A stretch of 64,000 nt of DNA, taken from assembly GCA_944383165.1 (NCBI GenBank), contig CALWON010000005.1, forward strand, positions 47-64,046. Direction: 5' to 3'. How positions within the stretch are numbered: the first letter of the stretch is position 1; every line of letters begins with the position of its first letter. Under the pieces are notes generated by a model, which was given only the letters and a program-made list of their open reading frames with translations, ran no database searches and was not told where the DNA came from. Made by a program: the position numbers and the translations under genes. This DNA comes from an uncultured Oscillospiraceae bacterium. GTDB taxonomy: Bacteria; Bacillota; Clostridia; Oscillospirales; Oscillospiraceae. Positions 4,219 through 17,462 of this stretch are shown piece after piece.

Positions 4219-4305
4219 CCTGCTTCCCTCCCCTCACACCGCCTGATTATATTCCTCCCCTTTTACGAAAGCAGTCAGAACACGCTATCATTCAAAACCA
4301 TTAAA

Positions 4306-4349
4306 AAAAGATTGTATTTCATGCCTTTTTGCATGAAATACAATCTTTT
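4306..4349 (-). terminator. Intrinsic terminator ending the trmB...rnmV unit
   Basis: Long perfect inverted repeat aaaagattgtatttcatgc / gcatgaaatacaatctttt just after the rnmV stop. Confidence 0.8.
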
Positions 4350-4351
4350 CT

Positions 4352-4957
4352 TCAAGTTTTTTCAAGACCCAACAGTTCTTTTGCCTCCTGTGGCGTGTAG
4401 AAGGTGTTGAGCAAATCCAAAAGGGCGTTTGCACTCATATGTTCTGGTAACTGGAGTGCATGGAGGAACTGCACCCTTTTTTCATGGCTATTGGCTCCAC
4501 CCACCAGCCCAGCCAGATAGAGGTCTGTTTTACTCAGTGCCTGTCCTGCTGGATGCCTCTCCTGCGGTTCACCCAAGAAAGTTGCGCCTGCCCGTTTTAA
4601 AACCTGTTGGAGTATCTCTGGTGACATCCCTTCCACTCCAAGTTTTCCCTCTTTGCCGCCTTTGCGTTTCCGCTTTTCCTTGCCATATTGGTCTGGGATG
4701 TAGGCATGTTTTACATATTGTGGTGGTATCTCCCCCTTGATGCGATTGCGGATGACAAAACCAGCCCCATCTGAATCTGTTAATACTATAAGACCACGCT
4801 TTTGAGCAACCTGCCCCAATAATTTCATTTTGGGCTGATTCTTAAAAATACCAAACCCATCTGTCTCTAAAATCAAGGTATCTACCACCTGGGACAGGGC
4901 ATTTTTGTCATACCGCCCTTCCACCACAATGGCCTCCTGAATTTGAACCTTTACCAT
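4352..4957 (-). CDS. rnmV: Ribonuclease M5 (TOPRIM plus C-terminal DUF4093-type domain)
   Basis: IQEAIVVEGRYD, IVLTDSDGAGFVIR, GKLGVEG motifs. Confidence 0.9.
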   Translation of the reverse strand: MVKVQIQEAIVVEGRYDKNALSQVVDTLILETDGFGIFKNQPKMKLLGQVAQKRGLIVLTDSDGAGFVIRNRIKGEIPPQYVKHAYIPDQYGKEKRKRKGGKEGKLGVEGMSPEILQQVLKRAGATFLGEPQERHPAGQALSKTDLYLAGLVGGANSHEKRVQFLHALQLPEHMSANALLDLLNTFYTPQEAKELLGLEKT

Positions 4958-6009
4958 CTTGTCCCCCTTTTCTGCATTGGGGCTGCCAGTTCCAACAGCA
5001 ATTCTGTCAACAGCTCCTGGTTTTCTCGCCCCGTCGATTTCATGGCAAAGTCAGTCTGAGCACATCGCACCACACTACGACGGCACCACTCCACCCCAAA
5101 ACGGCGGGCAGCATAGAAAATACGCTCTGCCCGGAATGACTTTAAATCCCACAGTTCTGCCACATAGGTTGGATTTTTTCCACGCTCCAACGCCAATGCT
5201 GCACAGTAAATTTGCCGTAACTGTTTCCCCAAAGCAGCCAGTATCTTCATGGGCGGTTCTTGCATCTGATACAATTCCCCCAGGACAGCCGCTGCATGGT
5301 CAAATTTCCCCTCACCAATGGCATTGGTCATTTGATAAATCACAGCATCCAACTGCACTGTGACCACTGCTTCAATATCTCCTCTGGTAATCCTGGTCTG
5401 TTTGGCATAGGCTCCCACTTTCTCAATTTCACCAATGAGTGTGTGCATCAAATCGCCGCAGAGAAAAATCATCTCTCGAGCCAGTCCCTTGTCAATGTCC
5501 CGTCCCAGTGCCCGGAACCGTCGTTGCATCCATGCCACCAGATTCGCCTCATCGCTTCTGGCAAAGTCCACTAAAACACCACTTTTTTTCACTGTGGCTG
5601 CCAATTTTGTCCTTGCGTCCCACTTAAATGGCACTAAATCATAGAAGAAAACCAGACAACAGTAGTCAGGCAACTGACTCAATATGGTGCGGTATTGTTC
5701 CCTCTCTGCCTCTCTGGTTTGAAACAAATCAAAATCTGTCACCAAAATAAAGGTGCGTTCTGCCATCATTGGCAGGCAATCCACTACTTCCTCCAGCTTC
5801 TTTGGGGTTACCTCCTTTTCCTTTAAAACATGAAAATTGAAGGTCTCCATACCATTTGTCAGGATACCTGCTTTCAGTCGCCCCAGATAATATTCTTTTA
5901 AATAGCTCTCCTCACCATAGAAAAAATACAACTGGCGAATCGCTCCCTCAGACAGTTCCTTCTCCAACTGGCGAAAGTCCATTGCTTCCGTCTTCGCTTT
6001 GGCTGCCAA
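4951..6009 (-). CDS. holA: DNA polymerase III delta subunit
   Basis: LYFFYGEESYLKEYY, FNFHVL, LPMMAERT motifs; conserved position after comEC. Start placed at TTG 6009 behind an AGGAGGT RBS. Confidence 0.92.
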   Translation of the reverse strand: MAAKAKTEAMDFRQLEKELSEGAIRQLYFFYGEESYLKEYYLGRLKAGILTNGMETFNFHVLKEKEVTPKKLEEVVDCLPMMAERTFILVTDFDLFQTREAEREQYRTILSQLPDYCCLVFFYDLVPFKWDARTKLAATVKKSGVLVDFARSDEANLVAWMQRRFRALGRDIDKGLAREMIFLCGDLMHTLIGEIEKVGAYAKQTRITRGDIEAVVTVQLDAVIYQMTNAIGEGKFDHAAAVLGELYQMQEPPMKILAALGKQLRQIYCAALALERGKNPTYVAELWDLKSFRAERIFYAARRFGVEWCRRSVVRCAQTDFAMKSTGRENQELLTELLLELAAPMQKRGTRW

Positions 6010-8284
6010 AGGTTTCCACCTCCTGAATCTGTATTTGAATTTTGCCTGACTGATCTGTGCGAAGTACACCAGCCCCTATATCCTGGATCCGCTGCAAGGT
6101 CTCAGGGGCTGGATGCCCATAGCGGTTATTTTCTCCTACAGAAATCAACACAAGCTCTGGTTGCAACTGAGACAGCAGTTGTTGTGAGGTTGAGGTAGCG
6201 GAACCATGGTGCCCAGCCATCAACAATTCCACTTGTGAAACTGGTAACTGCTGCAATAACTCTTGTTCCCCTTCCTCGCTCATATCTCCTGTGAGTAACA
6301 AGTCTGTCTCACCCCATGAGACAAGACAGGATAAGCCCTGTTCATTCACATCCCCTGATTGGAACATAGGTGGAAACAGGGTGATACTACCATCCTCCAG
6401 TTGAAATTGTGTCTTGGTGTCTATCATACACTGGTCTACCCCTGTCAATGCACAAAGTCCCTCTATTTCACTTCTCAAACTGCTGTCCTCTTCCACATCA
6501 GCCAATGCAATGTGGTCCACTTGAATCTGTTTGAGTACCTGTTCAATTCCGTTGGCGTGGTCAGCGTGATAGTGGGTCAGTACCAGCAAATCCAACCTGG
6601 AAACACCAGCATTTTTCAGATATGCTACCGCTTTTTCACCTGCATCACGGTTCCCACCACAGTCAACCATACACAGAAAATTTCCCATTCGTACCAGAAC
6701 ACACTGTCCCTGCCCCACATCCAGCACTGTAACACTTGCCTCTCCCCACCAAAAACTCCATGCGGTCAGCAAAATGGAGAGGGACAGCATAAAAACAATT
6801 CCACCGATGGGTGCAATTGCCCTTTTTCTTCCCGGGATCAGCCATACACCTGCCAATATCAAATAGCTATACAGAAACCAGATGCAGTAGTATTCCCCCT
6901 CTAAGCTGAGGGAGGAAAAGGGCAATCCATCCAGCCATGTCACTGCCCCTTGGATGTAGTGAGCCAAAAACACAGTAGGAACTGCAATAAGCTGTGCCAA
7001 TGGGGCGAACACAAGCCCCATAAGCCCCAATACCAGCCCAATTTGAAACAGAAAATCCATCGCCCAAAGCACAATCAAATTGGAAAGCGGTGCAATAAGG
7101 GAAACCGATTGCATGTGAAACGCAATCAGTGGCAGTGTAAACACAGAGGCTCCCGCTGTTGATGCCAGTGTGGCAATCACCAGCTTTGGTATCAACTGTC
7201 TCCACCACAATATAGACCATCTTTTTGCTTTTTTCAAATGGAAACAGCCCTGTAACCCGTTGTATACCACATCACTGCACAACAAAATACCTGCCACTGC
7301 GGCAAAAGAGAGCTGCAAACCAATATGAAGGAGTGTATATGGATTCTGGAGCACCTGCAACCCCAGTGCAACTGCCATGGTCGTTAAGGAATCGCTCTCC
7401 CGGTTGACTAACGGTGCCAATTGGGTCAACAAAATCATAATGGTAGCCCTCACAACCGATGGTGTACAACCTGTCATAATTGTAAATATGATACAAATTG
7501 GAATCAACAGGATGGCGGTCAGCCTGCGATTACCTCCTAAGCAGAGGGATACCATTCCAGCCAAAAAAGCCAGGTGCATCCCTGACACCGCAACAGCATG
7601 GCTTAACCCTGTATGCTGCAATGCCAGATTGAGTTCCTCTGACAACAGGTCTGTATCCCCTGTCACAACTGCCACCGTGATGGGGCTGACAGTCTCAGGA
7701 AAAACCTGTACAATGGTATCCTTCAGTTCCTCTGCCCAGACTAGGGGCAACATCCAAAAAGGGATATGTCCGGGGGACTGGACGGTTAAATCCCCATAGA
7801 ATTTCCCGGTCAGTAAGATCCCCTGTGCACGTTGGTATGTTCCTGCTAGTTGACAGTGGGCAATCCCTGAGATTTCGTCGCCTGGCTGTAGTGTCTCCCC
7901 ACGCTCATCCATGGTCAACAGCATAGGGAGGCGTCTACCCTGCTCTGTGATACAAGTAACTGGTACCTGCCACATATCATAACTTGGTTCCGGAATTCCT
8001 GTTACAACTGCCTGAAGTTCTATGGTTGTATTGTCCAGCCCCTGTACTGGTTGGAATTGCATCTCCTGATGACACACCATAGAGAAAAATCCGATTACAA
8101 ACCCCACAGACACATATCGCAACACACAAGACATTTTTGCACTGCGCTTTCTCAACAGAACTCCTATCAAACCAATCCCAATGCTAACTCCACATAGTGG
8201 AAGCAGCATTGCAGTCAGTGGGAATACTATGGCTGCCAACACAGCTCCAACTACACCCACTGACAATATCCCCAGTTTTCGCAC
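5948..8284 (-). CDS. comEC: DNA internalization competence protein ComEC/Rec2 with C-terminal metallo-beta-lactamase domain
   Basis: GLSHAVAVSGMH, PSVVRA, GLQLSFAA competence-domain motifs. MBL motifs LDVGQG, THYHADH, LLTGD, GHHGS, SVGENNRYGHP. Confidence 0.95.
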   Translation of the reverse strand: MRKLGILSVGVVGAVLAAIVFPLTAMLLPLCGVSIGIGLIGVLLRKRSAKMSCVLRYVSVGFVIGFFSMVCHQEMQFQPVQGLDNTTIELQAVVTGIPEPSYDMWQVPVTCITEQGRRLPMLLTMDERGETLQPGDEISGIAHCQLAGTYQRAQGILLTGKFYGDLTVQSPGHIPFWMLPLVWAEELKDTIVQVFPETVSPITVAVVTGDTDLLSEELNLALQHTGLSHAVAVSGMHLAFLAGMVSLCLGGNRRLTAILLIPICIIFTIMTGCTPSVVRATIMILLTQLAPLVNRESDSLTTMAVALGLQVLQNPYTLLHIGLQLSFAAVAGILLCSDVVYNGLQGCFHLKKAKRWSILWWRQLIPKLVIATLASTAGASVFTLPLIAFHMQSVSLIAPLSNLIVLWAMDFLFQIGLVLGLMGLVFAPLAQLIAVPTVFLAHYIQGAVTWLDGLPFSSLSLEGEYYCIWFLYSYLILAGVWLIPGRKRAIAPIGGIVFMLSLSILLTAWSFWWGEASVTVLDVGQGQCVLVRMGNFLCMVDCGGNRDAGEKAVAYLKNAGVSRLDLLVLTHYHADHANGIEQVLKQIQVDHIALADVEEDSSLRSEIEGLCALTGVDQCMIDTKTQFQLEDGSITLFPPMFQSGDVNEQGLSCLVSWGETDLLLTGDMSEEGEQELLQQLPVSQVELLMAGHHGSATSTSQQLLSQLQPELVLISVGENNRYGHPAPETLQRIQDIGAGVLRTDQSGKIQIQIQEVETFGSQSEDGSNGLSPVGEGTV

Positions 8285-8332
8285 TTGGTTTTCTCCCCTT
8301 CAAACAAATGGTGCCTTCCCTTTACTTTCTAT

Positions 8333-11300
8333 CTACAACTCTATCTTCTCAAATGGTGCCAGAACGGCTCTGGACCCCGCTTTTACAATGGAATAGGTCA
8401 CATCACAGTAGGGATAAATAGAACTACATTTTTCAACGGTGGAAATCAACACCAACTGTAGACCCAATTTATGAAACATCTGCATCATGGGTTCAATACG
8501 GTCACTAGTCATGTTGTTGAACGCCTCATCCAACAATACCAGTCGAATGCTGTTTGGGCTATGGCGATAGATTTGCAACAGAGAGGCACAAATTGCCACA
8601 TAGAAGGGAGCTTGATTTTCACCACCACTGCTATCTCCACTGACCTGAGAAAGTGGAACTTTCAGACCTGTTACCACATTTTCCACCTGAATATCATACT
8701 CCAAATAGGTACGGTAGTCCACATAACGGGATAGTTGCTCACTGACTGGCTTTTCTCCTGTGGCTCGTTCCTGTGCTGCCTGATTGATGTCTGCCATAAT
8801 CCGCTCCATCAGCTCATCTACCTGTGCCTCATAGGCTGGCTGGCTCATGGCTTCTCTTGTAAAAAAGCTGTCTGATTCGGTAATCTGCACATTGGCTTCA
8901 TCCAAAATCATATGGTAAAAATTTCTAAGTTGTGTATCTTGTGGCTCTGACAGGGAAAAGTGATACCGCTCCTCTCCATAGGTCAATTGGGTCATCACAC
9001 GATCCAGTGCCCGGAATTGCAGCTTTGCATTTTGAATGTCATCCTTCATACGGAACAGAATTTCTTTCCGAAACCGCTCCTTACATCTCAGTTTTGCCTC
9101 CTGTAAGTTCTCAATAGACCGCTCCAGTTCAATATGTACCAGTTCATTGTACGCCTTGCGGTATTCCTCCAACCCATTCAACCCCAATGGATAGTCCATC
9201 ACATAGTTTTGATTGTACTCCTGTTGCTTGGGTTGTAATTTTTGATAAAGTGCCTCCTGGAGCAATCCTGCTGTTTCGCTGCGCACTCTGCCACAGGTGC
9301 GCTCCCGCTCCTCCGGTTTACAATCCTGCAATAGTTTACCATATTGCTGTATGACTGCTTCTATCAGCTCAGGGTGTATCTGTTCAAACCGCTGCTTCTC
9401 CCCATAAATCACATCCAGCTCCTGTAGATTGCGTTCTATGTTCTTCTGTGTGTTTTCCATCCCTTTTTCATAGACCCAGATTTGTTTCTTTAACTCATCC
9501 AGTGCTGAATCCACTTCCTCACATGCTTCCTGGCAGTTTTTCACCCGATCAAATAACCCAGCTAACAGAGGATTGGTCTCATAATCCCTGATTTTTTCTG
9601 TTACTTGGGAAAGTTTTGTCTGTGCCTGTCCTAGCTGATGGAACACATCCAGATTTTGTTTTAGAGTAAGCAGATGGCGTCCATAGATAAACTGCGAAAG
9701 GGTCTGGGCACACAGCCCATACTTTGTGCCCTGTTCCTCCAACACTTTCAGCTGTTCCATCTGTTCTGCAATCAGTTCCTGTAATTGCTCCTGTCGCTCT
9801 CTGCGTGCATCGGAACCAATGCACCGGATGGGCTGTTTCATTCTTTGCAATCGGTAGCCTTGATGGCGCAACAAATCTCGACTGACACTGTTTCTGTACT
9901 GCTCAAGTTGCTCTATCTGCTCACAGCAGATAATGTCATGTAATAAATAATTGATATATTGCTTTGCGTATCTATTCTCACTGCCAACCTTCGCAGCCAA
10001 CATCTCTTTTTGTGGTGGTTCCCACTGTTTGCTGTCCTGCTCTAAGACTACTGTATTGACAAGGGCAATATCCTCTACCTGTTCCCCCAACTGTGCAAAT
10101 ACCTGTTTTGCCATTGGATAGTGTTTGGGGGACACCAGCACATCAAACCGTCTGCGCCCCAAGGCTGCCTCTGCACAATCCTGCCATTCCTCATCTTCCA
10201 TATAGAGCAATTCACATAAAATTTTGGCATCCTGTTCCAGTCCCTGTTTTTCCAGTTCCCCATTGATTTTTCTACGCAACAGTTCTGCCGGTGGTGGAAA
10301 TACCATTTTGCCCTTTTTCAGCTCGTTTAACTCCTGCACATGGTTTTTTCGTTCCTCTTGCAGTTGCTCCCGCTTGCGGCGAAGCTGGTAGCTCTCCTCA
10401 TCCAGAACTTCCTCCAGCCTATGCAACTTTTCCTCCACCTCTACCAGAGCAGATAGCTGCTGTTCCTGACCCTGTTCCAGCAAGTATTCCTTTTGTAGCA
10501 CTGGAGTATCATCTAGGTTCAGCGTGTCCAACTGTCCCAATAACTGTTCCAGTTCTGTCATACTCCGATTCCAGTTCTCATACCGCTTTTGCTGTCTGTC
10601 TAGTTCCTGCTGGCATTGTGCCTGCTCCTGTTGATAAAACACAGCCGCCTGCACCTGTGGGTCATCATCCCGTTCCCGTTCTGCCTGTCTGAGTGCCTCC
10701 TGTGTCTGTTTTTTCCGCTCCTCCAGCCGTTGGCGTTCTGGTACAAGGTTAGAAAGCTCCTGCTTTGCCTGTATCAACTCCTGTTGACACTGTTTACCCT
10801 TGCGCTGTTCCTGCTCCAGTCGCAGACGAATCAACATACCATCATAAATCCAAACCTGATTTTGGAGTTCTTGGGTACGATTTCCCTGTTCTACCACCTC
10901 TCCCAGCAACTTTTCTCTGGTTTTGGCTTCTAACAGTGTTTCCTCTAACCGCTCCAATTCTCTCATATCACTTTGTAAATCTTCTACCTTAATCTCTGGT
11001 TCAGGCAGAATATAGGCATAGATAAAACTGCGAATATCCTGAATTTCTTTGAGAGAGGTACCCATGTGAAATACTTCATTGAACTTCTTTCCCAGACTGG
11101 ATTCTGCATCTCCTATTCCAAGAGAACGACAGATATAATTGCGTGCGTCCCGCTGGGTGGCTGGATTTCGGATTCCATCACAGGAATTTTTAAATACCTC
11201 TTTTGTAGTTGGACGGCGGTCTGCATCCAAAAACTGCAAATCCTCCAACCGTATCCCATGTCTGGTGAGAAACCAGTCCTGTGCCACCTGTTTCAGTTCC

Positions 11301-11644
11301 TGGGTTGGGCTGTCTGACTCCACACGAACCACAATTACAAATGGCGCATTTTCCTTGTGGTCAAAAAATTCCACCCCTACATAAGCCACAGTCCGCCCTG
11401 GTCTCAGGTACAGGTTTTCCCCTCTCTGCTTCCCATGTACCGAGCCCTGCAAGGTTCGTTTGCTCCGTTGATTGCCCGCTGTGTTAAATTCCTTATTGGT
11501 GGTCAAACAGTAGCGGATGGCATCCATAATGGTGGTTTTACCAACCGCATTGACGCCAATCAAATAGGTTGCATTGCGAAAAGAAATGGTTTCATCCTGA
11601 AAATTGTGCCAGTGAATGAGGCGTAATCTGGTCAACTCAATCAA
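8333..11644 (-). CDS. jetC: Wadjet/Mks-type SMC-family ATPase (JetC/MksB-like)
   Basis: LRLIHWHNF N-terminus, Walker A GVNAVGKTT, long coiled coils with a central hinge, signature SGGENQ, Walker B LVLLDEAF. TTG start at 11644 behind GGAGGAG overlaps the jetB stop. Confidence 0.85.
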   Translation of the reverse strand: MIELTRLRLIHWHNFQDETISFRNATYLIGVNAVGKTTIMDAIRYCLTTNKEFNTAGNQRSKRTLQGSVHGKQRGENLYLRPGRTVAYVGVEFFDHKENAPFVIVVRVESDSPTQELKQVAQDWFLTRHGIRLEDLQFLDADRRPTTKEVFKNSCDGIRNPATQRDARNYICRSLGIGDAESSLGKKFNEVFHMGTSLKEIQDIRSFIYAYILPEPEIKVEDLQSDMRELERLEETLLEAKTREKLLGEVVEQGNRTQELQNQVWIYDGMLIRLRLEQEQRKGKQCQQELIQAKQELSNLVPERQRLEERKKQTQEALRQAERERDDDPQVQAAVFYQQEQAQCQQELDRQQKRYENWNRSMTELEQLLGQLDTLNLDDTPVLQKEYLLEQGQEQQLSALVEVEEKLHRLEEVLDEESYQLRRKREQLQEERKNHVQELNELKKGKMVFPPPAELLRRKINGELEKQGLEQDAKILCELLYMEDEEWQDCAEAALGRRRFDVLVSPKHYPMAKQVFAQLGEQVEDIALVNTVVLEQDSKQWEPPQKEMLAAKVGSENRYAKQYINYLLHDIICCEQIEQLEQYRNSVSRDLLRHQGYRLQRMKQPIRCIGSDARRERQEQLQELIAEQMEQLKVLEEQGTKYGLCAQTLSQFIYGRHLLTLKQNLDVFHQLGQAQTKLSQVTEKIRDYETNPLLAGLFDRVKNCQEACEEVDSALDELKKQIWVYEKGMENTQKNIERNLQELDVIYGEKQRFEQIHPELIEAVIQQYGKLLQDCKPEERERTCGRVRSETAGLLQEALYQKLQPKQQEYNQNYVMDYPLGLNGLEEYRKAYNELVHIELERSIENLQEAKLRCKERFRKEILFRMKDDIQNAKLQFRALDRVMTQLTYGEERYHFSLSEPQDTQLRNFYHMILDEANVQITESDSFFTREAMSQPAYEAQVDELMERIMADINQAAQERATGEKPVSEQLSRYVDYRTYLEYDIQVENVVTGLKVPLSQVSGDSSGGENQAPFYVAICASLLQIYRHSPNSIRLVLLDEAFNNMTSDRIEPMMQMFHKLGLQLVLISTVEKCSSIYPYCDVTYSIVKAGSRAVLAPFEKIEL

Positions 11645-12221
11645 AGTTCTCCTCCCCCTCCCACTCAGAACGCTCATACTGCGAAAGCCGCTCTCTGGTC
11701 TCCTGACAGGCTTTTTCTATCTTTTCCTCCGGCATGAGAAGGATAATAGAGGGAAAAATCTGAATTCTCCCTGTGGCACTGTCCAACCGCTCCAGTGCCA
11801 TTGCCAAATGGTATCGCCTGAATTTTCTCAGACTATCCTCTAGCATCCGTCGGTCTAATTTTCTTGGTAAATTCAGTTTGTTGTACTCCGTTTCCAGTTC
11901 TTCCACTGTGATGGTCACAATTTGCTCTTGAACAGACAGCGTTTCCCGTTTTTCCACATAGAGTAAACGGAATAACAACAACAAAATACTTTCATATTTT
12001 AGAAATTCCACCCGTCCTGCACCAAATTGGTTCACCAACTGCGCCACTCGCAAGGTGCGATTGACCTGAATGGTATAGCCCAGCGGCTCAAATAGCTGCT
12101 GCATCTCCTCCAAATTTGCCAGAAGGGTATAGTATTTTTCCTTTGTAACATCCAATGTACCAACTAAAAAACAGTGATTGAGCAGGTAGTTTGCCAGCTC
12201 TGTTCGCACCTCACGTTTCAT
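11637..12221 (-). CDS. jetB: Wadjet JetB / DUF4194-like KITE subunit
   Basis: 194 aa with ESILLLLFRLLYVEK and IQIFPSIILL segments typical of DUF4194; lies between the JetA-like and SMC genes with overlapping stop/start. Confidence 0.8.
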   Translation of the reverse strand: MKREVRTELANYLLNHCFLVGTLDVTKEKYYTLLANLEEMQQLFEPLGYTIQVNRTLRVAQLVNQFGAGRVEFLKYESILLLLFRLLYVEKRETLSVQEQIVTITVEELETEYNKLNLPRKLDRRMLEDSLRKFRRYHLAMALERLDSATGRIQIFPSIILLMPEEKIEKACQETRERLSQYERSEWEGEENFD

Positions 12222-13632
12222 GTTTCCGCCTCCTCACTGTGAAATCCTGAAACCGCAACCCACCACAGACAAGGATATGGGGTAGCATTTCAATTTCATA
12301 CATTCTGTCCGATGATTGGGAGTAGGTATGTAGTCCAATCATCAACACCAGTTCTTCTGATGTGCCATATTGTTCTGCCAGCGCATGGGCACTGGTCTCC
12401 TCCTGCTTTTGCAGTACCTTTTGGGCAAAGTGGTTGACATTTTCCGCAGTGACTGCACTGCGGATATAGTGCATGAGCTGCTCTTGCCCTTGCACAATCA
12501 CATCCACTGGCAGTTCTGGCAGAGGCTCCATCTGCTCAATGATACGCCCCTGTTTGGGCTGAACTGGTGCTTTGAGCGACTGCCAATCCACATATCCCTG
12601 TTCAAAGCAGCAAATGGTATTTGCCATCCATGATTCTACTGGCTCCATCAACTCATCTGCATCCTGTATTTCCTGAGAAATCACCTGTAACAGCCGATTC
12701 ACCTTACTTTTTACCGTTGCATCGGACAACAACAAAAATTGTGCCCGTTGTACTGCCCTTGTGCGGTACAGAATATGCTGTCTGTCAATTTCATTCATCA
12801 GATTTCCAATTTCTTTCAGATTTTCTTCCAGATTGGAAATCAGTTGTTCAATGGTCTCTGCTGCCTCCTCCTGGGTGATTCGTTCCACGGTGGAACAGTC
12901 TTGGCAAAGCTGCTGAACATATCGACCCCTGCACAACTGTAATTGCTCCAACAAGTCTGACTTGTAGCAAAAGAGATTTTCACTGGTTTTAAAGCGGTGA
13001 TATGCTCCCTGTACAATCTCCCGTTCATAGGTATCAAAGAGCTGCAATACCTCCTGTGGTGTTTTCCCTTTGGTCAGGTCATACATGTACTCCCCAATGG
13101 ATGCCGCTAGTTGTCGCAGTGCTGTATTCAAATCCTCCAAATCTCCCACCGCTTCCCGCAGTACCGCTTCATAGGGGTGTTCTGTCTGTTCTATCCCCTG
13201 AAGCAATTTACATACTTTGAACAGCTTGCCCTGATAGGCGGTCACATTGGGGGATATGACATCACCAAAGGAGCGGATAATAGGCACAATTTTATGGTGG
13301 AAAACGAACTTTGGTTCCTCCTCATAACTGCCTTGGCGTTCCTCCAGCCATCCGGTCTGTTTCAGACGGCGCAGAAAGGCAGTTGCCATCGTTCGTGGTG
13401 TCTGCCCTCCCCCTTCTGAAAACTCCAGTTCTTCTTCCTCTAATACCACTTCTTTTTGTAACCCCATGAAGTAATCCTCTGCCCAGTCAATCATCATGGT
13501 TTTTGAGGCACCGTGGAGAGGGGTGCGCCTGCAATTTTCCCACAAGCAGAGCAGAATATCCATATATTCCCGTCTATGGTTTCCGGTTAACGGTCTAAAA
13601 AAATCCTGTGAAACCAGATCAAAAAGCTGCAC
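12211..13632 (-). CDS. jetA: Wadjet JetA (kleisin, DUF5716/DUF3375-like)
   Basis: LFDLVSQDFFRPLTG N-terminus, FLRRLKQTGWLE winged helix, C-terminal GLRFQDFTV. First gene of the ABC triad; GTG start behind GGGAGG. Confidence 0.8.
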   Translation of the reverse strand: MQLFDLVSQDFFRPLTGNHRREYMDILLCLWENCRRTPLHGASKTMMIDWAEDYFMGLQKEVVLEEEELEFSEGGGQTPRTMATAFLRRLKQTGWLEERQGSYEEEPKFVFHHKIVPIIRSFGDVISPNVTAYQGKLFKVCKLLQGIEQTEHPYEAVLREAVGDLEDLNTALRQLAASIGEYMYDLTKGKTPQEVLQLFDTYEREIVQGAYHRFKTSENLFCYKSDLLEQLQLCRGRYVQQLCQDCSTVERITQEEAAETIEQLISNLEENLKEIGNLMNEIDRQHILYRTRAVQRAQFLLLSDATVKSKVNRLLQVISQEIQDADELMEPVESWMANTICCFEQGYVDWQSLKAPVQPKQGRIIEQMEPLPELPVDVIVQGQEQLMHYIRSAVTAENVNHFAQKVLQKQEETSAHALAEQYGTSEELVLMIGLHTYSQSSDRMYEIEMLPHILVCGGLRFQDFTVRRRKHET

Positions 13633-13655
13633 CAAAACCCCTCCCATTCTGTTCT

Positions 13656-14357
13656 TTAATCTTCGTTCTGTTGCTGTTGTGTGAGCACACCACTGGGAAT
13701 ATAGACAGGCTCATCATCCAAATGCTGTTTTGTACCCACACAGCGGTTGATGGTCATACCTTGATTGTGAAATTTCTCCTCATAGTCTGTCATCACACCG
13801 CAAATTCCCTGTCCATGCAAGTCTCGTGTCACTTCAGACAGGGTATATCCTGCCTTTGGAAATTGGAACAGGGAATACTCAAATAAATCTCGGTTATCCG
13901 TTTTAAAATGAATCTGTCCACCTTCACGCAAAATACCACGATACAAAATCAAAAACTGTTCATGAGTTAGGCGACGGCGTGCGTGGCGGTTGGATGGCCA
14001 CGGGTCACAGAAGTTGATAAAAATACGCTCCAGCTCATCTGGCTGAAAATAGTCTCTCAGATAGGCAGCATCCCCATCTACAAAAAATACGTTATCCAGT
14101 CCCTTTTCCTCACACCGCTCCATTGCCACCACCATAGCATCTGCCACACGCTCAATGGCAATATACAGGAGCTCTGGGTTCTGTGCCGCTGTCTCTGCTG
14201 TAAACCGTCCTTTTCCGCAGCCAATCTCCAGCCAAATTCCCTTGGCATCCGGTTTTAAAGTATGCCACTTGCCTCGATACTGAGCTGGTTCACGAATCAG
14301 CATTCTGGCACAGCGTTCCATTCTGGGAATTAAATTGGGTTTTTTTCTCATTCGCAT
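13656..14357 (-). CDS. trmB: tRNA (guanine-N7)-methyltransferase
   Basis: MRMRKKP, LEIGCGKG, IFINFCDPWP, RRLT, FKTDN, TDYEEKF. Confidence 0.96.
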   Translation of the reverse strand: MRMRKKPNLIPRMERCARMLIREPAQYRGKWHTLKPDAKGIWLEIGCGKGRFTAETAAQNPELLYIAIERVADAMVVAMERCEEKGLDNVFFVDGDAAYLRDYFQPDELERIFINFCDPWPSNRHARRRLTHEQFLILYRGILREGGQIHFKTDNRDLFEYSLFQFPKAGYTLSEVTRDLHGQGICGVMTDYEEKFHNQGMTINRCVGTKQHLDDEPVYIPSGVLTQQQQNED

Positions 14358-14393: not shown

Positions 14394-14422
14394 ATCTTAG
14401 CATAGGAACTGACCCCTTGCAA
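14394..14422 (-). promoter_or_regulatory. Sigma-A promoter of the trmB-jetABC-comEC-holA-rnmV unit
   Basis: TTGCAA-17 bp-TAAGAT with extended TG. Confidence 0.6.
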
Positions 14423-14693: not shown

Positions 14694-15344
14694 TTACATT
14701 CCTTTTGCTTTTAGTCGAATTTGTTGTTTGGCACATGCGTTGACATAGGGGTCATGTGTTACCACAACAATTGTTTTTCCATGACGATTCAGTTCTTTTA
14801 GAATTTCAAGGACATAGTTTCGATTGTATTCATCCAAACTGCCTGTTGGCTCATCTGCAAATACAATCTGTGGGGATTTTGCAATCACTTTTGCCAATGC
14901 CACACGCTGTTGTTCTCCGCCACTCAAGGTGTAAACCTTGCGACCCTCATACCCATGTAATCCCACCTGTTCCAATGCTCCAGCAATGATGCGACATTCC
15001 TTTTTTCTGCTGATTTGTTTGAAATGTGTTACCAATCTCATGTTATACATCACATCTTCTGTTTCAATCAACCCATAATTTTGAAAGAGATAGGAGAGTT
15101 TATACCGTCGCAATTTCACTGCCGCTGGGGAGGAAAAGACAGGATTCTTTTGCCCTAAAATGGAAACTGTTCCGCTGTCTGGTCGCTCCAGCATCCCCAT
15201 GATATTTAGTAGTGTGGTTTTTCCTGTTCCGCTCTCCCCCATCATAGATAAAAAGTCCCCCTGTTCTATTTTAAGGGAAAAATCATGAAAAAGCACTTGA
15301 TTTCCAAATTGCTTACAAATATTAGACAACACAAGATCTGCCAT
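14694..15344 (-). CDS. ABC transporter ATP-binding protein, lactococcin-972-group/LolD-like
   Basis: [48 protein letters not shown] resembles the bacteriocin-associated (TIGR03608-type) group. Confidence 0.85.
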
Positions 15345-15345
15345 C

Positions 15346-17391
15346 TTACTCAGCTCCCTTCACCACTTGATAAAGATTTTTTGTGGCATAGTTCTGCCCT
15401 ATCACTCCTGTGATTCCCAGTTCTCCAACCAATGCCGCCAGCAAAAGCCCATCATGGATGGATACATGTGTTGTTATGGTGACAAATGTCAGCAGGATGA
15501 GAACCATTCCATAAGAAATTATGGTTCCAATTAGATGTTTTTTCAAACAGTGGAACAAAGAATACCCCTCAATTAAACCATAGGCAATTTTATCCCTGTC
15601 ATTCTCACAATACAGTTTTGCACCAAATAAAATAAGACAGACAATTCCAACCAGTAAAACCACAGACTGGGTTCCATAGAGGGAAAGCATCTGTTGTTGA
15701 TGGTGTATGGTCTCCTGAAAGGTATCGGAAAGTGTGGGAGTGTTTGGTGTTGCTACATCAATCCCAGTTTTCTGGAGTATGGGAAGTAACGCTTCATAGG
15801 GGTTTTCCGCTGTAACTTTGAGAAAATAGGAGCCCTGTGAGCAATAACTGAACACAAATGCCCCACTCAACTGCTTTTCCTCCACAACCAAAATCACTGG
15901 TTCCTCAATTTCACCATAGTTTCCAGTTCCTGTGTCTGCATTGTAGGTATAAATTTGACTTAGCATTCCATCATATGGGATAAAGTTTACATCCATTTGA
16001 TAGCCATTGGAGAAAAATTCAGCCCAATACCCCTCTGTCTGCTCTTTTGAAATTGGAATTAGCACATTACATTCTGTTTGTGATAGTTCGTGTTGGGTAA
16101 TCTGGTTTCCGTTGCTATCATAAATTGGATTGAATTCCAGATAATTTTGGTTGACTGTGACATAAGTTTGACCAAATTCTTCTGCCGCAGTGGTACCACT
16201 GATTAAACTATATTGATAGTTGCTTGCACCCATTAAAACCCCTTGATAGCGGTCAACAGTTTCGGAATAGAATTCCATATAATTTTCCTTCAGGTTTTCC
16301 ACAGATGTATTTCTTGTGTTCACAGGGATAGTAACATATCCAGTCATCTTCTCTGCAAAATATTCTGCTGTTTCCATAGAATGATAGGCAATCATTCCAT
16401 TGCGCACTGCAATAGACAGAAAAAACATACAAAATGCCAGGAAAATGACTTTTGATACCATGGTTGCAATATAAATTCCCCTTTTTGGTACTTTCCCTTT
16501 GATATAATCTGACCCATGCTGTCGGCTCGTCAATAGGGCAGAACTGGCGAATCCAACCACCAAAACAAATAAAATTCCCAACATGTGCTGAAGAAAAAAT
16601 ACAGTATACTGTGGTAAAGTGGATGTGTATATCTTTGCTGCTACCACAAAATGGACAATCTGCACCATTCCAAAACTAAATCCCATCATAGGCAGCAGTT
16701 CTTTTCCCTCATCCAACAAAATGGTTTGTGTGGTATATCCCTCCATCTTTTTTAATACATTACGTTTTCCATTGGATAACACATAAAAAATCATACTTAT
16801 CACCAGCATAAATGCTGGTACAAAAGAAAAGAGCAAAACAGAGAACTGCCCAGAAACATAACTTGCTGGTTGCATCGTAACAGTATACCCCAACTGCTCA
16901 ATGGCATTTTTCACTTTGGATTGCTCCTCTATTTTTACATAGTAAGTACCTTCATTCAGGTTAAACGGTTGGGCATCTGACCAAGGGAAAAAAGATACAT
17001 CTTGCAGAAGTGATGGTACATTGAGATGATATACCTTATATCCATCTGGACTTGTAGTGGATTGACACTCCCCCTGTTTCAGAGGCTTTCCATCTATGCC
17101 AGAAAGTAATTCAACAAAATTCTCTGTGTGACTTGTTTTGTAATATTGGTAGTGTACCCTTTCCCCTGTGGCATCCAGATAGCGAAACATAATATCTGCA
17201 TTCACAGCATCCAATGCCTCACTAACGTCATTCAAAAATTCTGTGTTGGATTTGCTCTCTGGTTTCTCAATCACACAGGTTATTTTATCTTCTTCAATGC
17301 GGTCCAATGGCTCAAATGCAAAATTAAAACAGGATAGTACAGACAAAACAGCCACAAAAATGGTAAAACAGAACAGCACCAATGGTTTCAT
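15346..17391 (-). CDS. Bacteriocin-associated integral membrane protein (DUF1430-like)
   Basis: About 680 aa with N-terminal TM, KKMEGY and GLIEGYS repeat motifs, YVTVNQNYLEFNPI and LIPISK in the large loop, directly upstream of the ABC ATPase. Confidence 0.75.
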   Translation of the reverse strand: MKPLVLFCFTIFVAVLSVLSCFNFAFEPLDRIEEDKITCVIEKPESKSNTEFLNDVSEALDAVNADIMFRYLDATGERVHYQYYKTSHTENFVELLSGIDGKPLKQGECQSTTSPDGYKVYHLNVPSLLQDVSFFPWSDAQPFNLNEGTYYVKIEEQSKVKNAIEQLGYTVTMQPASYVSGQFSVLLFSFVPAFMLVISMIFYVLSNGKRNVLKKMEGYTTQTILLDEGKELLPMMGFSFGMVQIVHFVVAAKIYTSTLPQYTVFFLQHMLGILFVLVVGFASSALLTSRQHGSDYIKGKVPKRGIYIATMVSKVIFLAFCMFFLSIAVRNGMIAYHSMETAEYFAEKMTGYVTIPVNTRNTSVENLKENYMEFYSETVDRYQGVLMGASNYQYSLISGTTAAEEFGQTYVTVNQNYLEFNPIYDSNGNQITQHELSQTECNVLIPISKEQTEGYWAEFFSNGYQMDVNFIPYDGMLSQIYTYNADTGTGNYGEIEEPVILVVEEKQLSGAFVFSYCSQGSYFLKVTAENPYEALLPILQKTGIDVATPNTPTLSDTFQETIHHQQQMLSLYGTQSVVLLVGIVCLILFGAKLYCENDRDKIAYGLIEGYSLFHCLKKHLIGTIISYGMVLILLTFVTITTHVSIHDGLLLAALVGELGITGVIGQNYATKNLYQVVKGAE

Positions 17392-17411
17392 AAAACATTC
17401 CCTCTTTAAAT

Positions 17412-17462
17412 AAAAACTCCCTTGTTTTGGCAATCCAATCATATCAAAACAAGGGAGTTTTT
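17412..17462 (-). terminator. Terminator/attenuator hairpin between the histidine kinase and the DUF1430 gene
   Basis: Perfect 18-bp inverted repeat aaaaactcccttgttttg / caaaacaagggagttttt, with a T-tail ending about 10 nt before the RBS. Confidence 0.75.

What the first reader, a model, noticed from the sequence alone, without database searches (positions are those of the whole stretch)
8333..13632. Intact Wadjet JetABC SMC complex with no jetD, embedded in a housekeeping/competence operon
SEEN: jetA-jetB-jetC are tightly coupled (overlapping stops/starts), and JetC keeps Walker A, signature and Walker B motifs. Only about 48 bp separate the jetC stop from the comEC start and about 23 bp separate trmB from jetA, so no jetD gene can fit on either side. 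I see no terminator between the trmB promoter (14394-14422) and the hairpin after rnmV (4306-4349). KNOWN: Wadjet plasmid restriction needs the TOPRIM nuclease JetD/MksG; MksBEF-type complexes are condensin relatives. INFERENCE: this may be (a) a domesticated, nuclease-free condensin, (b) a loop-extruding DNA sensor coupled to another effector, notably the co-transcribed ComEC uptake channel/nuclease, or (c) a system whose jetD lies elsewhere or was lost.
Basis: partly seen in the sequence, partly recalled or inferred. Interest (0 to 1): 0.7.

Follow-up and report, generated by a model that had tools for sequence, protein, structure and literature searches.

The report
Wadjet DNA motor kept without its nuclease
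Two sister species of gut Oscillospiraceae carry the three motor genes (jetABC) of a Wadjet anti-plasmid system but not its DNA-cutting gene jetD, and the motor genes are still conserved as strongly as housekeeping genes, so the motor probably does something useful without the nuclease.

Summary
Window 8333-13632 (minus strand) encodes intact, overlapping type I Wadjet jetA-jetB-jetC. JetC keeps Walker A, the SGGE signature and Walker B. The genes lie 23 nt after trmB and 48 nt before comEC-holA-rnmV.

No JetD exists in this 98%-complete genome or in the sister species' genome. About 95 homologous loci with readable DNA downstream all have jetD directly after jetC.

- **How jetD was lost:** a rearrangement breakpoint lies in the last codons of jetC. 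Relatives have mgsA-comEC-holA, and their trmB is elsewhere.
- **Not decay:** between the two JetD-less species, dN/dS is 0.03 for jetA, jetB and jetC. All nine metagenome contigs that could show an empty site carry jetA instead.
- **Other facts:** canonical Smc-ScpAB is present. A link to ComEC is unlikely.
- **Recurrence:** two more JetD-less jetABC lineages, plus decayed scars, occur in the same bacterial family.

The best reading is a nuclease-free, MksBEF-like loop-extruding complex. Its actual role, whether on the chromosome or in plasmid control without cutting, is inferred and not shown. Published work already proposes that MksBEF arose from JetABCD by JetD loss, so this is a new, independently derived member of a known kind. 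Interest is moderate.

The parts
13656..14357 (-). trmB (tRNA m7G46 methyltransferase), the gene directly upstream of jetA; probably supplies the promoter for the array
   Evidence: NCBIfam NF001080 TrmB 191 bits (cut-off 132) and Pfam Methyltransf_4. It is 68-78% identical to trmB of genus relatives, where it is not next to comEC.
12211..13632 (-). jetA (kleisin), 473 aa from the GTG at 13632 (an alternative ATG lies at 13647)
   Evidence: Pfam JetA 4.1e-81; PADLOC JetA1 1.3e-172. GGGAGGGG lies 7 nt before the GTG. dN/dS is 0.033 against the sister species. Its branch is about twice as long as in JetD-linked sister systems.
11637..12221 (-). jetB (KITE, DUF4194), 194 aa; overlaps jetA by 11 nt
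   Evidence: Pfam DUF4194 4.5e-20; PADLOC JetB1 2.3e-59. dN/dS 0.025.
8333..11677 (-). jetC (SMC ATPase), 1114-aa ORF; the likely start is the TTG at 11644 (1103 aa)
   Evidence: PADLOC JetC1 1297.8 bits over 12-1113. Walker A, SGGE and Walker B are intact. dN/dS 0.036. The branch is not accelerated. The C-terminus ends ...APFEKIEL*, where JetD-linked sisters have ...APFE(K/R)(I/L)YE plus an acidic tail and an overlapping jetD ATG.
8285..8332 (-). 48-nt jetC-comEC junction where jetD would be expected; contains the comEC RBS (GAAGGGGAG) and no terminator
   Evidence: Sequence read directly. No terminator hit. The same junction is present in the sister species.
5948..8284 (-). comEC (DNA uptake channel with an MBL domain), directly downstream of jetC
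   Evidence: TIGR00361 ComEC_Rec2 200.8 bits (cut-off 190); Pfam Competence plus Lactamase_B. In relatives it follows mgsA.
4951..6009 (-). holA (DNA polymerase III delta), overlaps the end of comEC
   Evidence: TIGR01128 holA 233 bits. A 352-aa gene call in metagenome copies. An RBS lies before the start at 6009.
4352..4957 (-). rnmV-like gene (Toprim plus DUF4093, RNase M5 type), last gene of the array
   Evidence: Pfam DUF4093 2e-19; TIGR00334 74 bits, below its cut-off. It is the only copy in the genome. holA-rnmV linkage is conserved in relatives that lack Wadjet, so it is a housekeeping gene and not a JetD substitute.
4304..4351 (-). strong intrinsic-terminator-like hairpin that ends the array
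   Evidence: 20-bp stem followed by a T-rich tail.

Best explanation
This is a type I Wadjet operon that lost its nuclease gene. An ancestor acquired jetABCD. A chromosomal rearrangement or deletion then removed jetD and joined jetC to the comEC-holA-rnmV block. One endpoint lies in the last five to seven codons of jetC, and trmB now sits directly upstream.

The remaining JetA (kleisin), JetB (KITE) and JetC (SMC ATPase) are intact and catalytically competent by motif. They are fixed in two sister species and kept under purifying selection as strong as for housekeeping genes.

**Shown:** the identity of the genes, the absence of JetD, the junction anatomy, the synteny break, fixation in the population, and the selection.

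**Inferred:** the complex still loads on DNA and extrudes loops using ATP but cannot cleave. It would then act like the nuclease-free MksBEF complexes, which are thought to derive from JetABCD. It would organise or survey DNA, either the chromosome or small circular DNA, alongside the canonical Smc-ScpAB. It would be expressed constitutively, because it is probably co-transcribed with trmB and the essential holA.
For: - **Identity and motifs:**
- **No JetD in the own genome (98% complete):** Pfam JetD_C gives 0 hits and DUF3322 only noise. tblastn and phmmer with relatives' JetD find nothing.
- **No JetD_C in the sister species' genome:**
- **Homologous loci:** 37 of 37 full-length, same-subfamily loci from genome contigs (apart from the sister-species locus L012) and 57 of 57 scored metagenome loci with at least 1.3 kb of DNA downstream of jetC have jetD immediately after jetC. 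Nine further metagenome loci, L158-L166, were fetched but not scored. The nearest JetD-linked JetC proteins are 55-58% identical, and nothing in 5.8 billion proteins lies between 58% and the window's own 90% cluster.
- **Junction:** sisters end ...APFE(K/R)(I/L)YE plus an acidic tail, with jetD's ATG overlapping the jetC stop. The window and its sister species end ...APFEKIEL* and then run 48 nt to comEC.
- **Synteny break:** relatives have nth-DUF6198-mgsA-comEC-holA(-rnmV). The window genome's own mgsA is on another contig. trmB of relatives is not near comEC.
- **Selection between the two JetD-less species (93-94% nt identity):** dN/dS is 0.033 for jetA, 0.025 for jetB and 0.036 for jetC. 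For comparison, trmB is 0.012, holA 0.049 and comEC 0.167. JetD-linked sister systems give 0.06-0.10.
- **Fixation:** the same gene order appears in contigs from several independent metagenome studies. All 9 contigs that carry the exact TrmB and have room downstream have jetA after it.
[quoted passage not shown] M. smegmatis MksBEF is another example (PMC11329512).
- **Recurrence in the same family:** genus g74 has JetD-less jetABC in 3 species with dN/dS about 0.04. Genome G007 is a further case.
Against: - No functional or expression data.
- In the tested Wadjet systems, deleting jetD or mksG abolishes plasmid restriction (PMC10586767, PMC10123090). There is therefore no experimental precedent for what a type I JetABC does alone in a Firmicute.
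- The genome already has a complete Smc-ScpAB, so a condensin role would be redundant or specialised.
- The lineage is narrow: two species on a long branch. The time of JetD loss cannot be bracketed, and a role as broadly conserved as MksBEF's is not shown.
- One metagenome lineage carries a +1 frameshift in jetC (L168). If real, the complex is dispensable in at least some strains.
- Both genomes are MAG-type assemblies, so an unbinned replicon carrying jetD cannot be fully excluded.
Confidence: 0.6

Rival explanations
1. It is still a plasmid- or foreign-DNA-restriction system. JetABC senses small circular DNA by loop extrusion and recruits an unlinked or non-homologous effector nuclease in place of JetD.
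For: Strong purifying selection on all three genes fits any retained function, including defence. JetA and JetB have changed at proportionally more otherwise-conserved positions than JetC: 17% and 13% against 6%. JetA's branch is about twice as long. Both would fit adaptation to a new partner. Effector swapping on SMC-type defence systems has precedent in Lamassu (PMC10586767).
Against: No candidate partner is visible. The operon neighbours are housekeeping genes with conserved synteny in relatives that lack Wadjet. No extra domain has been added to JetA, JetB or JetC. The lineage-specific substitutions show no significant clustering that would mark a new interface. The locus is fixed and syntenic rather than variable, unlike typical defence islands.
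Confidence: 0.15
2. jetD exists but was missed. It could sit on an unassembled or unbinned part of the genome, such as a plasmid, and act in trans, making this an ordinary Wadjet system.
For: The genome has 133 contigs and appears to be a metagenome bin. The sister genome is also a MAG.
Against: Two independent genomes lack any JetD_C match, and the own genome is estimated 98% complete. In about 95 related loci jetD is always directly downstream of jetC and often overlaps its stop codon. The junction shows that the jetC 3' end and jetD were removed together.
Confidence: 0.07
3. It is a non-functional remnant. The DNA is kept only because transcription from the trmB promoter must pass through jetABC to reach the essential holA.
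For: comEC-holA appears to lack its own promoter both here and in relatives, where the spacers after the upstream gene are only 36-65 nt. One lineage has a frameshifted jetC. Decayed Wadjet scars exist in the genus and family: G081, G111, G208 and G216.
Against: A transcriptional conduit would not constrain codons. Yet dN/dS is 0.025-0.036 over about 1,800 codons, with 273 synonymous against 41 non-synonymous differences and no indels across 6.2 kb between the species. All ATPase motifs are intact.
Confidence: 0.05
4. JetABC is functionally coupled to ComEC, handling or policing DNA that enters by natural transformation.
For: A 48-nt spacer with no terminator between jetC and comEC makes co-transcription likely. 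Wadjet is known to act against transformed plasmids (PMC10586767).
Against: The adjacency comes from a lineage-specific rearrangement. Relatives have mgsA-comEC with an equally short spacer. Other JetD-less jetABC lineages in the family are not next to comEC. From my own knowledge rather than any test here, ComEC is an integral membrane channel whose nuclease domain is thought to act outside the cytoplasm on the incoming duplex. That would leave it badly placed to cut cytoplasmic DNA held by an SMC complex.
Confidence: 0.03

Closest known systems
Type I Wadjet / JET (JetABCD; e.g. E. coli GF4-3, PDB 8as8/8bfn; P. aeruginosa PA14, PDB 8dk2)
   Same: JetA, JetB and JetC match the type I profiles over their full length. 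A profile of this subfamily hits the E. coli JetC chain 8as8_A (6.5e-21). The gene order, overlapping genes and ATPase motifs are the same.
   Different: There is no JetD in the locus or the genome. JetC has lost the short acidic C-terminal tail seen in JetD-linked sisters. The locus is a fixed chromosomal site next to housekeeping genes rather than a defence island. The JetD-linked relatives G005 and G009 sit beside a restriction helicase and GmrSD.
Nuclease-free MksBEF complexes (P. aeruginosa MksBEF; M. smegmatis MksBEF)
   Same: A three-gene kleisin/KITE/SMC operon without MksG/JetD, coexisting with Smc-ScpAB. The literature proposes that it derived from JetABCD by JetD loss and acts on the chromosome (PMC10586767; PMC11329512).
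   Different: This is an independent and much more recent derivation inside a Clostridia type I Wadjet subfamily, confined to two species. The sequences remain squarely within JetABC type I models. No functional data exist.
Other JetD-less jetABC operons in gut Firmicutes
   Same: Intact jetABC, no JetD in the genome, conserved synteny and strong purifying selection.
   Different: These are different JetABC subfamilies (JetC only about 25-30% identical) in different chromosomal contexts: chrA-jetABC with a convergent VWA gene in g74, and MCP-jetABC-trkHA in G007. They are therefore separate loss events.

Membership tests
Wadjet type I (JetABCD) | JetA kleisin (Pfam PF18982 / PADLOC JetA1) | tested here: met
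   PF18982 273 bits (cut-off 26.2); PADLOC PDLC00458 1.3e-172.
Wadjet type I (JetABCD) | JetB KITE subunit (DUF4194) | tested here: met
   PF13835 72.5 bits (cut-off 32.7); PADLOC JetB1 2.3e-59.
Wadjet type I (JetABCD) | JetC SMC ATPase with intact Walker A, signature motif and Walker B | tested here: met
   PADLOC JetC1 1297.8 bits over the full length. GVNAVGKT, SGGE and LLDEAF sit at invariant columns.
Wadjet type I (JetABCD) | JetD (aCAP plus Toprim nuclease) encoded with jetABC | tested here: not met
   No room at the locus. PF09983 gives 0 hits genome-wide and PF11795 only noise. tblastn and phmmer with two relatives' JetD find nothing. The sister genome is also negative.
Wadjet type I (JetABCD) | ATP-dependent cleavage or restriction of small circular DNA | not testable with these tools
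   Needs biochemistry or plasmid assays.
Nuclease-free MksBEF-like SMC complex | Kleisin-KITE-SMC operon with no MksG/JetD anywhere in the genome | tested here: met
Nuclease-free MksBEF-like SMC complex | Maintained by selection and vertically inherited at a fixed chromosomal site | tested here: met
   dN/dS 0.025-0.036. The locus is identical in two species and in many metagenome contigs, with no empty-site allele. This holds only across two sister species.
Nuclease-free MksBEF-like SMC complex | Role in chromosome organisation or segregation | not testable with these tools
   Needs Hi-C, ChIP or mutant phenotypes. Smc-ScpAB is present in the same genome.

The most novel reading that the evidence does not exclude
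The JetABC motor has a selectable function of its own that does not need DNA cleavage. Examples would be compacting, silencing or mis-segregating small circular DNA (as proposed for eukaryotic Smc5/6), or a specialised chromosome task. Loss of JetD would then be a recurrent evolutionary route from immunity to housekeeping. Three independent JetD-less lineages under strong purifying selection within one bacterial family (the window lineage, genus g74 and G007), next to decayed scars of other Wadjet copies, would be snapshots of that route.
Probability: 0.2. Interest if true: 0.75.

Novelty: new member of a known kind. Interest (0 to 1): 0.45.

Why it matters
How defence SMC complexes (Wadjet) and chromosome-organising ones (MukBEF/MksBEF) evolved from each other is an open question. 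This locus is a well-defined natural case of the proposed step, JetABCD minus JetD. The breakpoint is visible, JetD-linked sister systems (55-58% identical) are available for comparison, and selection on the remaining motor is clearly still acting. It offers a compact three-gene construct for testing what a type I JetABC does alone, with the sister JetD as an add-back control. It also shows that defence-system catalogues requiring all four genes will miss such derivatives.

Tried and rejected
1. **Mapping the JetD-docking residue of E. coli JetC (F919, 'larynx') onto the window protein.** Single-sequence PDB searches with the window JetC, its C-terminal 265 aa and a relative's JetC returned nothing. 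A full-length profile aligned only up to E. coli residue 891. A C-terminal profile found only BtuD at chance level. The residue was not mapped.
2. **Looking for a lost interface.** I tested for spatial clustering of lineage-specific substitutions at otherwise conserved columns. None was significant (p = 0.11, 0.35 and 0.99 for JetC, JetA and JetB). An apparent cluster at JetC 909-927 is not significant.
3. **JetB N-terminal truncation.** The PADLOC profile offset suggested one. It is rejected, because JetD-linked sisters start at the same place.
4. **rnmV as a substitute Toprim nuclease.** Rejected. It is the single copy in the genome, and holA-rnmV linkage is conserved in relatives without Wadjet.
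5. **The 'split jetA' in metagenome locus L171.** This is a run of N in a scaffold, not a mutation.
6. **trmB-comEC as an ancestral pair interrupted by an insertion.** Rejected.
8. **Intermediates between 58% and 97% identity that would date the JetD loss.** None exist in genome contigs, metagenome contigs or the 5.8-billion-protein collection.
Full report
**1. What is there.**

On the minus strand the window carries the array trmB (13656-14357), jetA (12211-13632), jetB (11637-12221), jetC (8333-11644/11677), comEC (5948-8284), holA (4951-6009) and an rnmV-like gene (4352-4957). A strong hairpin at 4351-4304 follows, then spoIIGA.

JetA, JetB and JetC match the Pfam JetA, DUF4194 and SbcC_Walker_B/AAA_29 models. 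They also match the PADLOC type I models over their full length (JetC1 1298 bits). The genes overlap: jetA/jetB by 11 nt, and jetB/jetC by 8 nt from the RBS-preceded TTG at 11644.

JetC has GVNAVGKT, SGGE and LLDEAF at columns that are invariant across 18 homologues. The spacers are 23 nt (trmB to jetA) and 48 nt (jetC to comEC).

The 'no terminator' statement is consistent with the scan. Only the hairpin after rnmV is strong, and the other hits are weak, intragenic and at chance frequency.

**2. Is jetD really missing?**

The window lies in a 2.38-Mb, 133-contig genome estimated 98% complete.
- Pfam JetD_C finds nothing at E <= 1.
- DUF3322 gives only two sub-threshold chance hits, one of them inside jetA.
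- tblastn and phmmer with the JetD proteins of two genus relatives find nothing.

The genome has a complete canonical Smc (TIGR02168, 1067 bits), ScpA and ScpB.

**3. How unusual is that for this family?**

I scanned one genome per species and scored 46 loci, 44 from the scan plus two genus relatives. Every full-length same-subfamily locus with DNA downstream had jetD directly after jetC (37 of 37, apart from L012). The one same-subfamily exception was L012.

L012 is a sister species, an uncultured Oscillospiraceae MAG. It is 93-94% identical in nucleotides and collinear over 18 kb. It has the same trmB-jetABC-comEC-holA-rnmV-spoIIGA order. The distant G007 locus, described in section 8, also lacked jetD.

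In metagenome contigs, 57 of 57 scored loci with room downstream had jetD. Nine further fetched loci, L158-L166, were not scored.

The sister species' genome also lacks JetD_C. In a 5.8-billion-protein collection, the window's JetC belongs to one 90% cluster of 23 variants. The next relatives are only 58% identical, and those examined carry jetD.

Only 3 of 60 sampled relatives have any JetC. The closest one, Colidextribacter sp. OB.20 at 55% identity, has jetD and sits beside a restriction-type helicase and a transposase fragment.

**4. How jetD was lost.**

JetD-linked sister systems end JetC with ...APFE(K/R)(I/L)YE plus a short acidic tail, and the jetD ATG overlaps the jetC stop. The window and L012 end ...APFEKIEL*, followed by 48 nt and then comEC. 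One endpoint of the event therefore lies in the last few codons of jetC.

The locus is also a synteny breakpoint.
- The nearest relatives with data have nth-DUF6198-mgsA-comEC-holA(-rnmV), with only 36-65 nt between mgsA and comEC.
- In the window genome, mgsA lies on another contig, followed by unrelated genes.
- trmB of six relatives is not within 12 kb of comEC.

So this was not an insertion into a trmB-comEC operon. A rearrangement joined trmB-jetABC to comEC-holA-rnmV and took jetD away. Because comEC-holA seems to rely on read-through from whatever lies upstream, jetABC is now probably transcribed together with the essential holA. This last point is inferred.

**5. Decay or retention?**

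I compared the two JetD-less species using the Nei-Gojobori method.

| Gene | dN/dS |
|---|---|
| jetA | 0.033 |
| jetB | 0.025 |
| jetC | 0.036 |
| trmB | 0.012 |
| holA | 0.049 |
| rnmV | 0.031 |
| comEC | 0.167 |

Across jetABC there are 273 synonymous and 41 non-synonymous differences, and no indels over 6.2 kb. JetD-linked sister systems give 0.06-0.10.

Because both species share the same junction, the loss most likely predates their split. The selection has therefore acted on JetABC without JetD.

The arrangement recurs in contigs from several independent metagenome projects. All nine contigs that encode the window's exact TrmB and extend downstream have jetA 23 nt after it, so no empty-site allele was seen.

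One lineage (L168) has a +1 G frameshift in jetC that is seen in several Logan contigs. If it is real it is very recent, since dN/dS for jetC against L012 is 0.02. It hints that the complex is not essential. A 'split jetA' in L171 is an N-gap artefact.

**6. Signs of remodelling.**

In trees rooted with the Lachnospiraceae-type clade, the JetD-less branch is not longer than its JetD-linked sisters for JetC (0.60 against 0.41-0.65). It is slightly longer for JetB and about twice as long for JetA (0.73 against 0.23-0.40).

I then looked at columns conserved in at least 90% of JetD-linked homologues and in all seven sisters. The JetD-less lineage has changed 22 of 345 in JetC, 26 of 156 in JetA and 10 of 78 in JetB, with no significant clustering.

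The literature places JetD contacts on the JetC 'larynx' (E. coli F919) and on an N-terminal JetB segment (bioRxiv 10.1101/2023.11.03.565488; PMC10586767). I could not map F919 onto this protein. The JetB N-terminus is collinear with the sisters and differs by one substitution at a conserved glutamate, E7T. These are hints only.

**7. What it most likely does.**

- **Shown:** an intact, motif-complete kleisin-KITE-SMC set without its nuclease, fixed and under strong selection.
- **Inferred:** it still forms an ATP-driven DNA-loading and loop-extruding complex that cannot cut DNA.

The closest functional analogy is the nuclease-free MksBEF complexes. [quoted passage not shown] M. smegmatis has a similar MksBEF (PMC11329512).

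A cleavage-independent action on plasmids, or use of an unlinked nuclease, cannot be excluded. ComEC coupling is unlikely for the reasons in section 4.

rnmV is the only RNase M5-type gene in the genome, and its linkage to holA is ancestral. It is therefore not a replacement Toprim nuclease.

**8. Context in the family.**

Among 301 Oscillospiraceae genomes, 18 have a type I JetA. Of the other 17:
- 11 have JetD.
- One has a JetA pseudogene.
- Two have JetA fragments.
- Three species of one genus (g74) have intact jetABC and no JetD.

The g74 operons sit at a conserved site: hydEGF, chrA, jetABC, then a convergent VWA gene. Their dN/dS is 0.04-0.08.

A further genus-mate, G007, has a distant jetABC followed by trkH-trkA and no JetD. 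G081 carries a JetA-N/JetD-C fusion scar.

JetD loss with retention of the motor is therefore recurrent, alongside ordinary decay. Earlier AI notes of this scan report similar nuclease-free Wadjet operons in other gut Firmicutes. I did not test those notes, but they lower the novelty of this single case.

**9. Verdict.**

This is an independently derived, narrowly distributed member of the known nuclease-free MksBEF-like kind. Its anatomy is clean enough to be useful for experiments. Interest is moderate, at 0.45.

Noticed in passing
L088:7533-8105 (-) (genome G081, about 3.6 kb from its trmB): A 190-aa ORF whose N-terminal part matches Pfam JetA positions 2-108 and whose C-terminal part matches the last ~60 residues of a relative's JetD. 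It looks like an internal-deletion scar of a whole jetABCD operon. No JetD_C hit reaches threshold in that genome.
   Followed up: partly
L173:6039-11406 (+), L174, L175 (genomes G134, G287, G338; genus g74 of the same family): A second, unrelated JetD-less type I jetABC (JetC about 25-30% identical to the window's). It sits at a conserved site between hydE-hydG-hydF/chrA and a convergent VWA-CoxE gene in three species. dN/dS is 0.04-0.08, like the neighbouring hydF. No JetD_C is found in any of the three genomes.
   Followed up: partly
L009:2049-7436 (+) (genome G007, same genus): A third JetD-less jetABC (27% JetC identity), flanked by a chemoreceptor gene and trkH-trkA. There is no JetD_C in that 89%-complete genome. 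Its close homologue in G009 does have jetD and lies beside a GmrSD restriction gene.
   Followed up: partly
window ~10650 (jetC); L168:2895-6207: A metagenome lineage of the sister species has a one-base insertion (GG to GGG) that splits jetC into 355-aa and 742-aa products. The two products are on record from 5 and 3 contigs. It may be a real loss-of-function allele or a recurrent assembly error.
   Followed up: partly
window 4352-8284; L176, L178: In relatives, comEC follows mgsA (rarA) with only 36-65 nt between them. In the window it follows jetC with 48 nt. comEC-holA(-rnmV) therefore seems to have no promoter of its own in this genus and depends on read-through from whichever gene lies upstream.
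   Followed up: partly
window 4352-4957 (-): The RNase M5-type gene (Toprim plus DUF4093) scores 74 bits against TIGR00334, below the 110.65-bit cut-off. It is nevertheless the only copy in the genome and is 66-67% identical to the holA-linked gene of relatives. It is probably a divergent but genuine rnmV.
   Followed up: partly
L033, L034, L037, L132, L134, L135 and other Lachnoanaerobaculum-type loci, about 0.9 kb upstream of jetA: Complete jetABCD operons in this clade are preceded by a ~400-aa gene that matches the MBL-fold C-terminal part of the window's ComEC in the iterative search. It is probably a stand-alone metallo-beta-lactamase-fold hydrolase. Its relation to Wadjet was not examined.
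   Followed up: no
window 14694-17442 (-): Upstream of trmB lies a lactococcin-972-type ABC ATPase (TIGR03608, 252 bits, just under its cut-off) with a bacteriocin-associated 7-TM-type membrane protein. The pair keeps its place next to trmB in the sister species and in metagenome contigs. An earlier first-reader note covers it.
   Followed up: no
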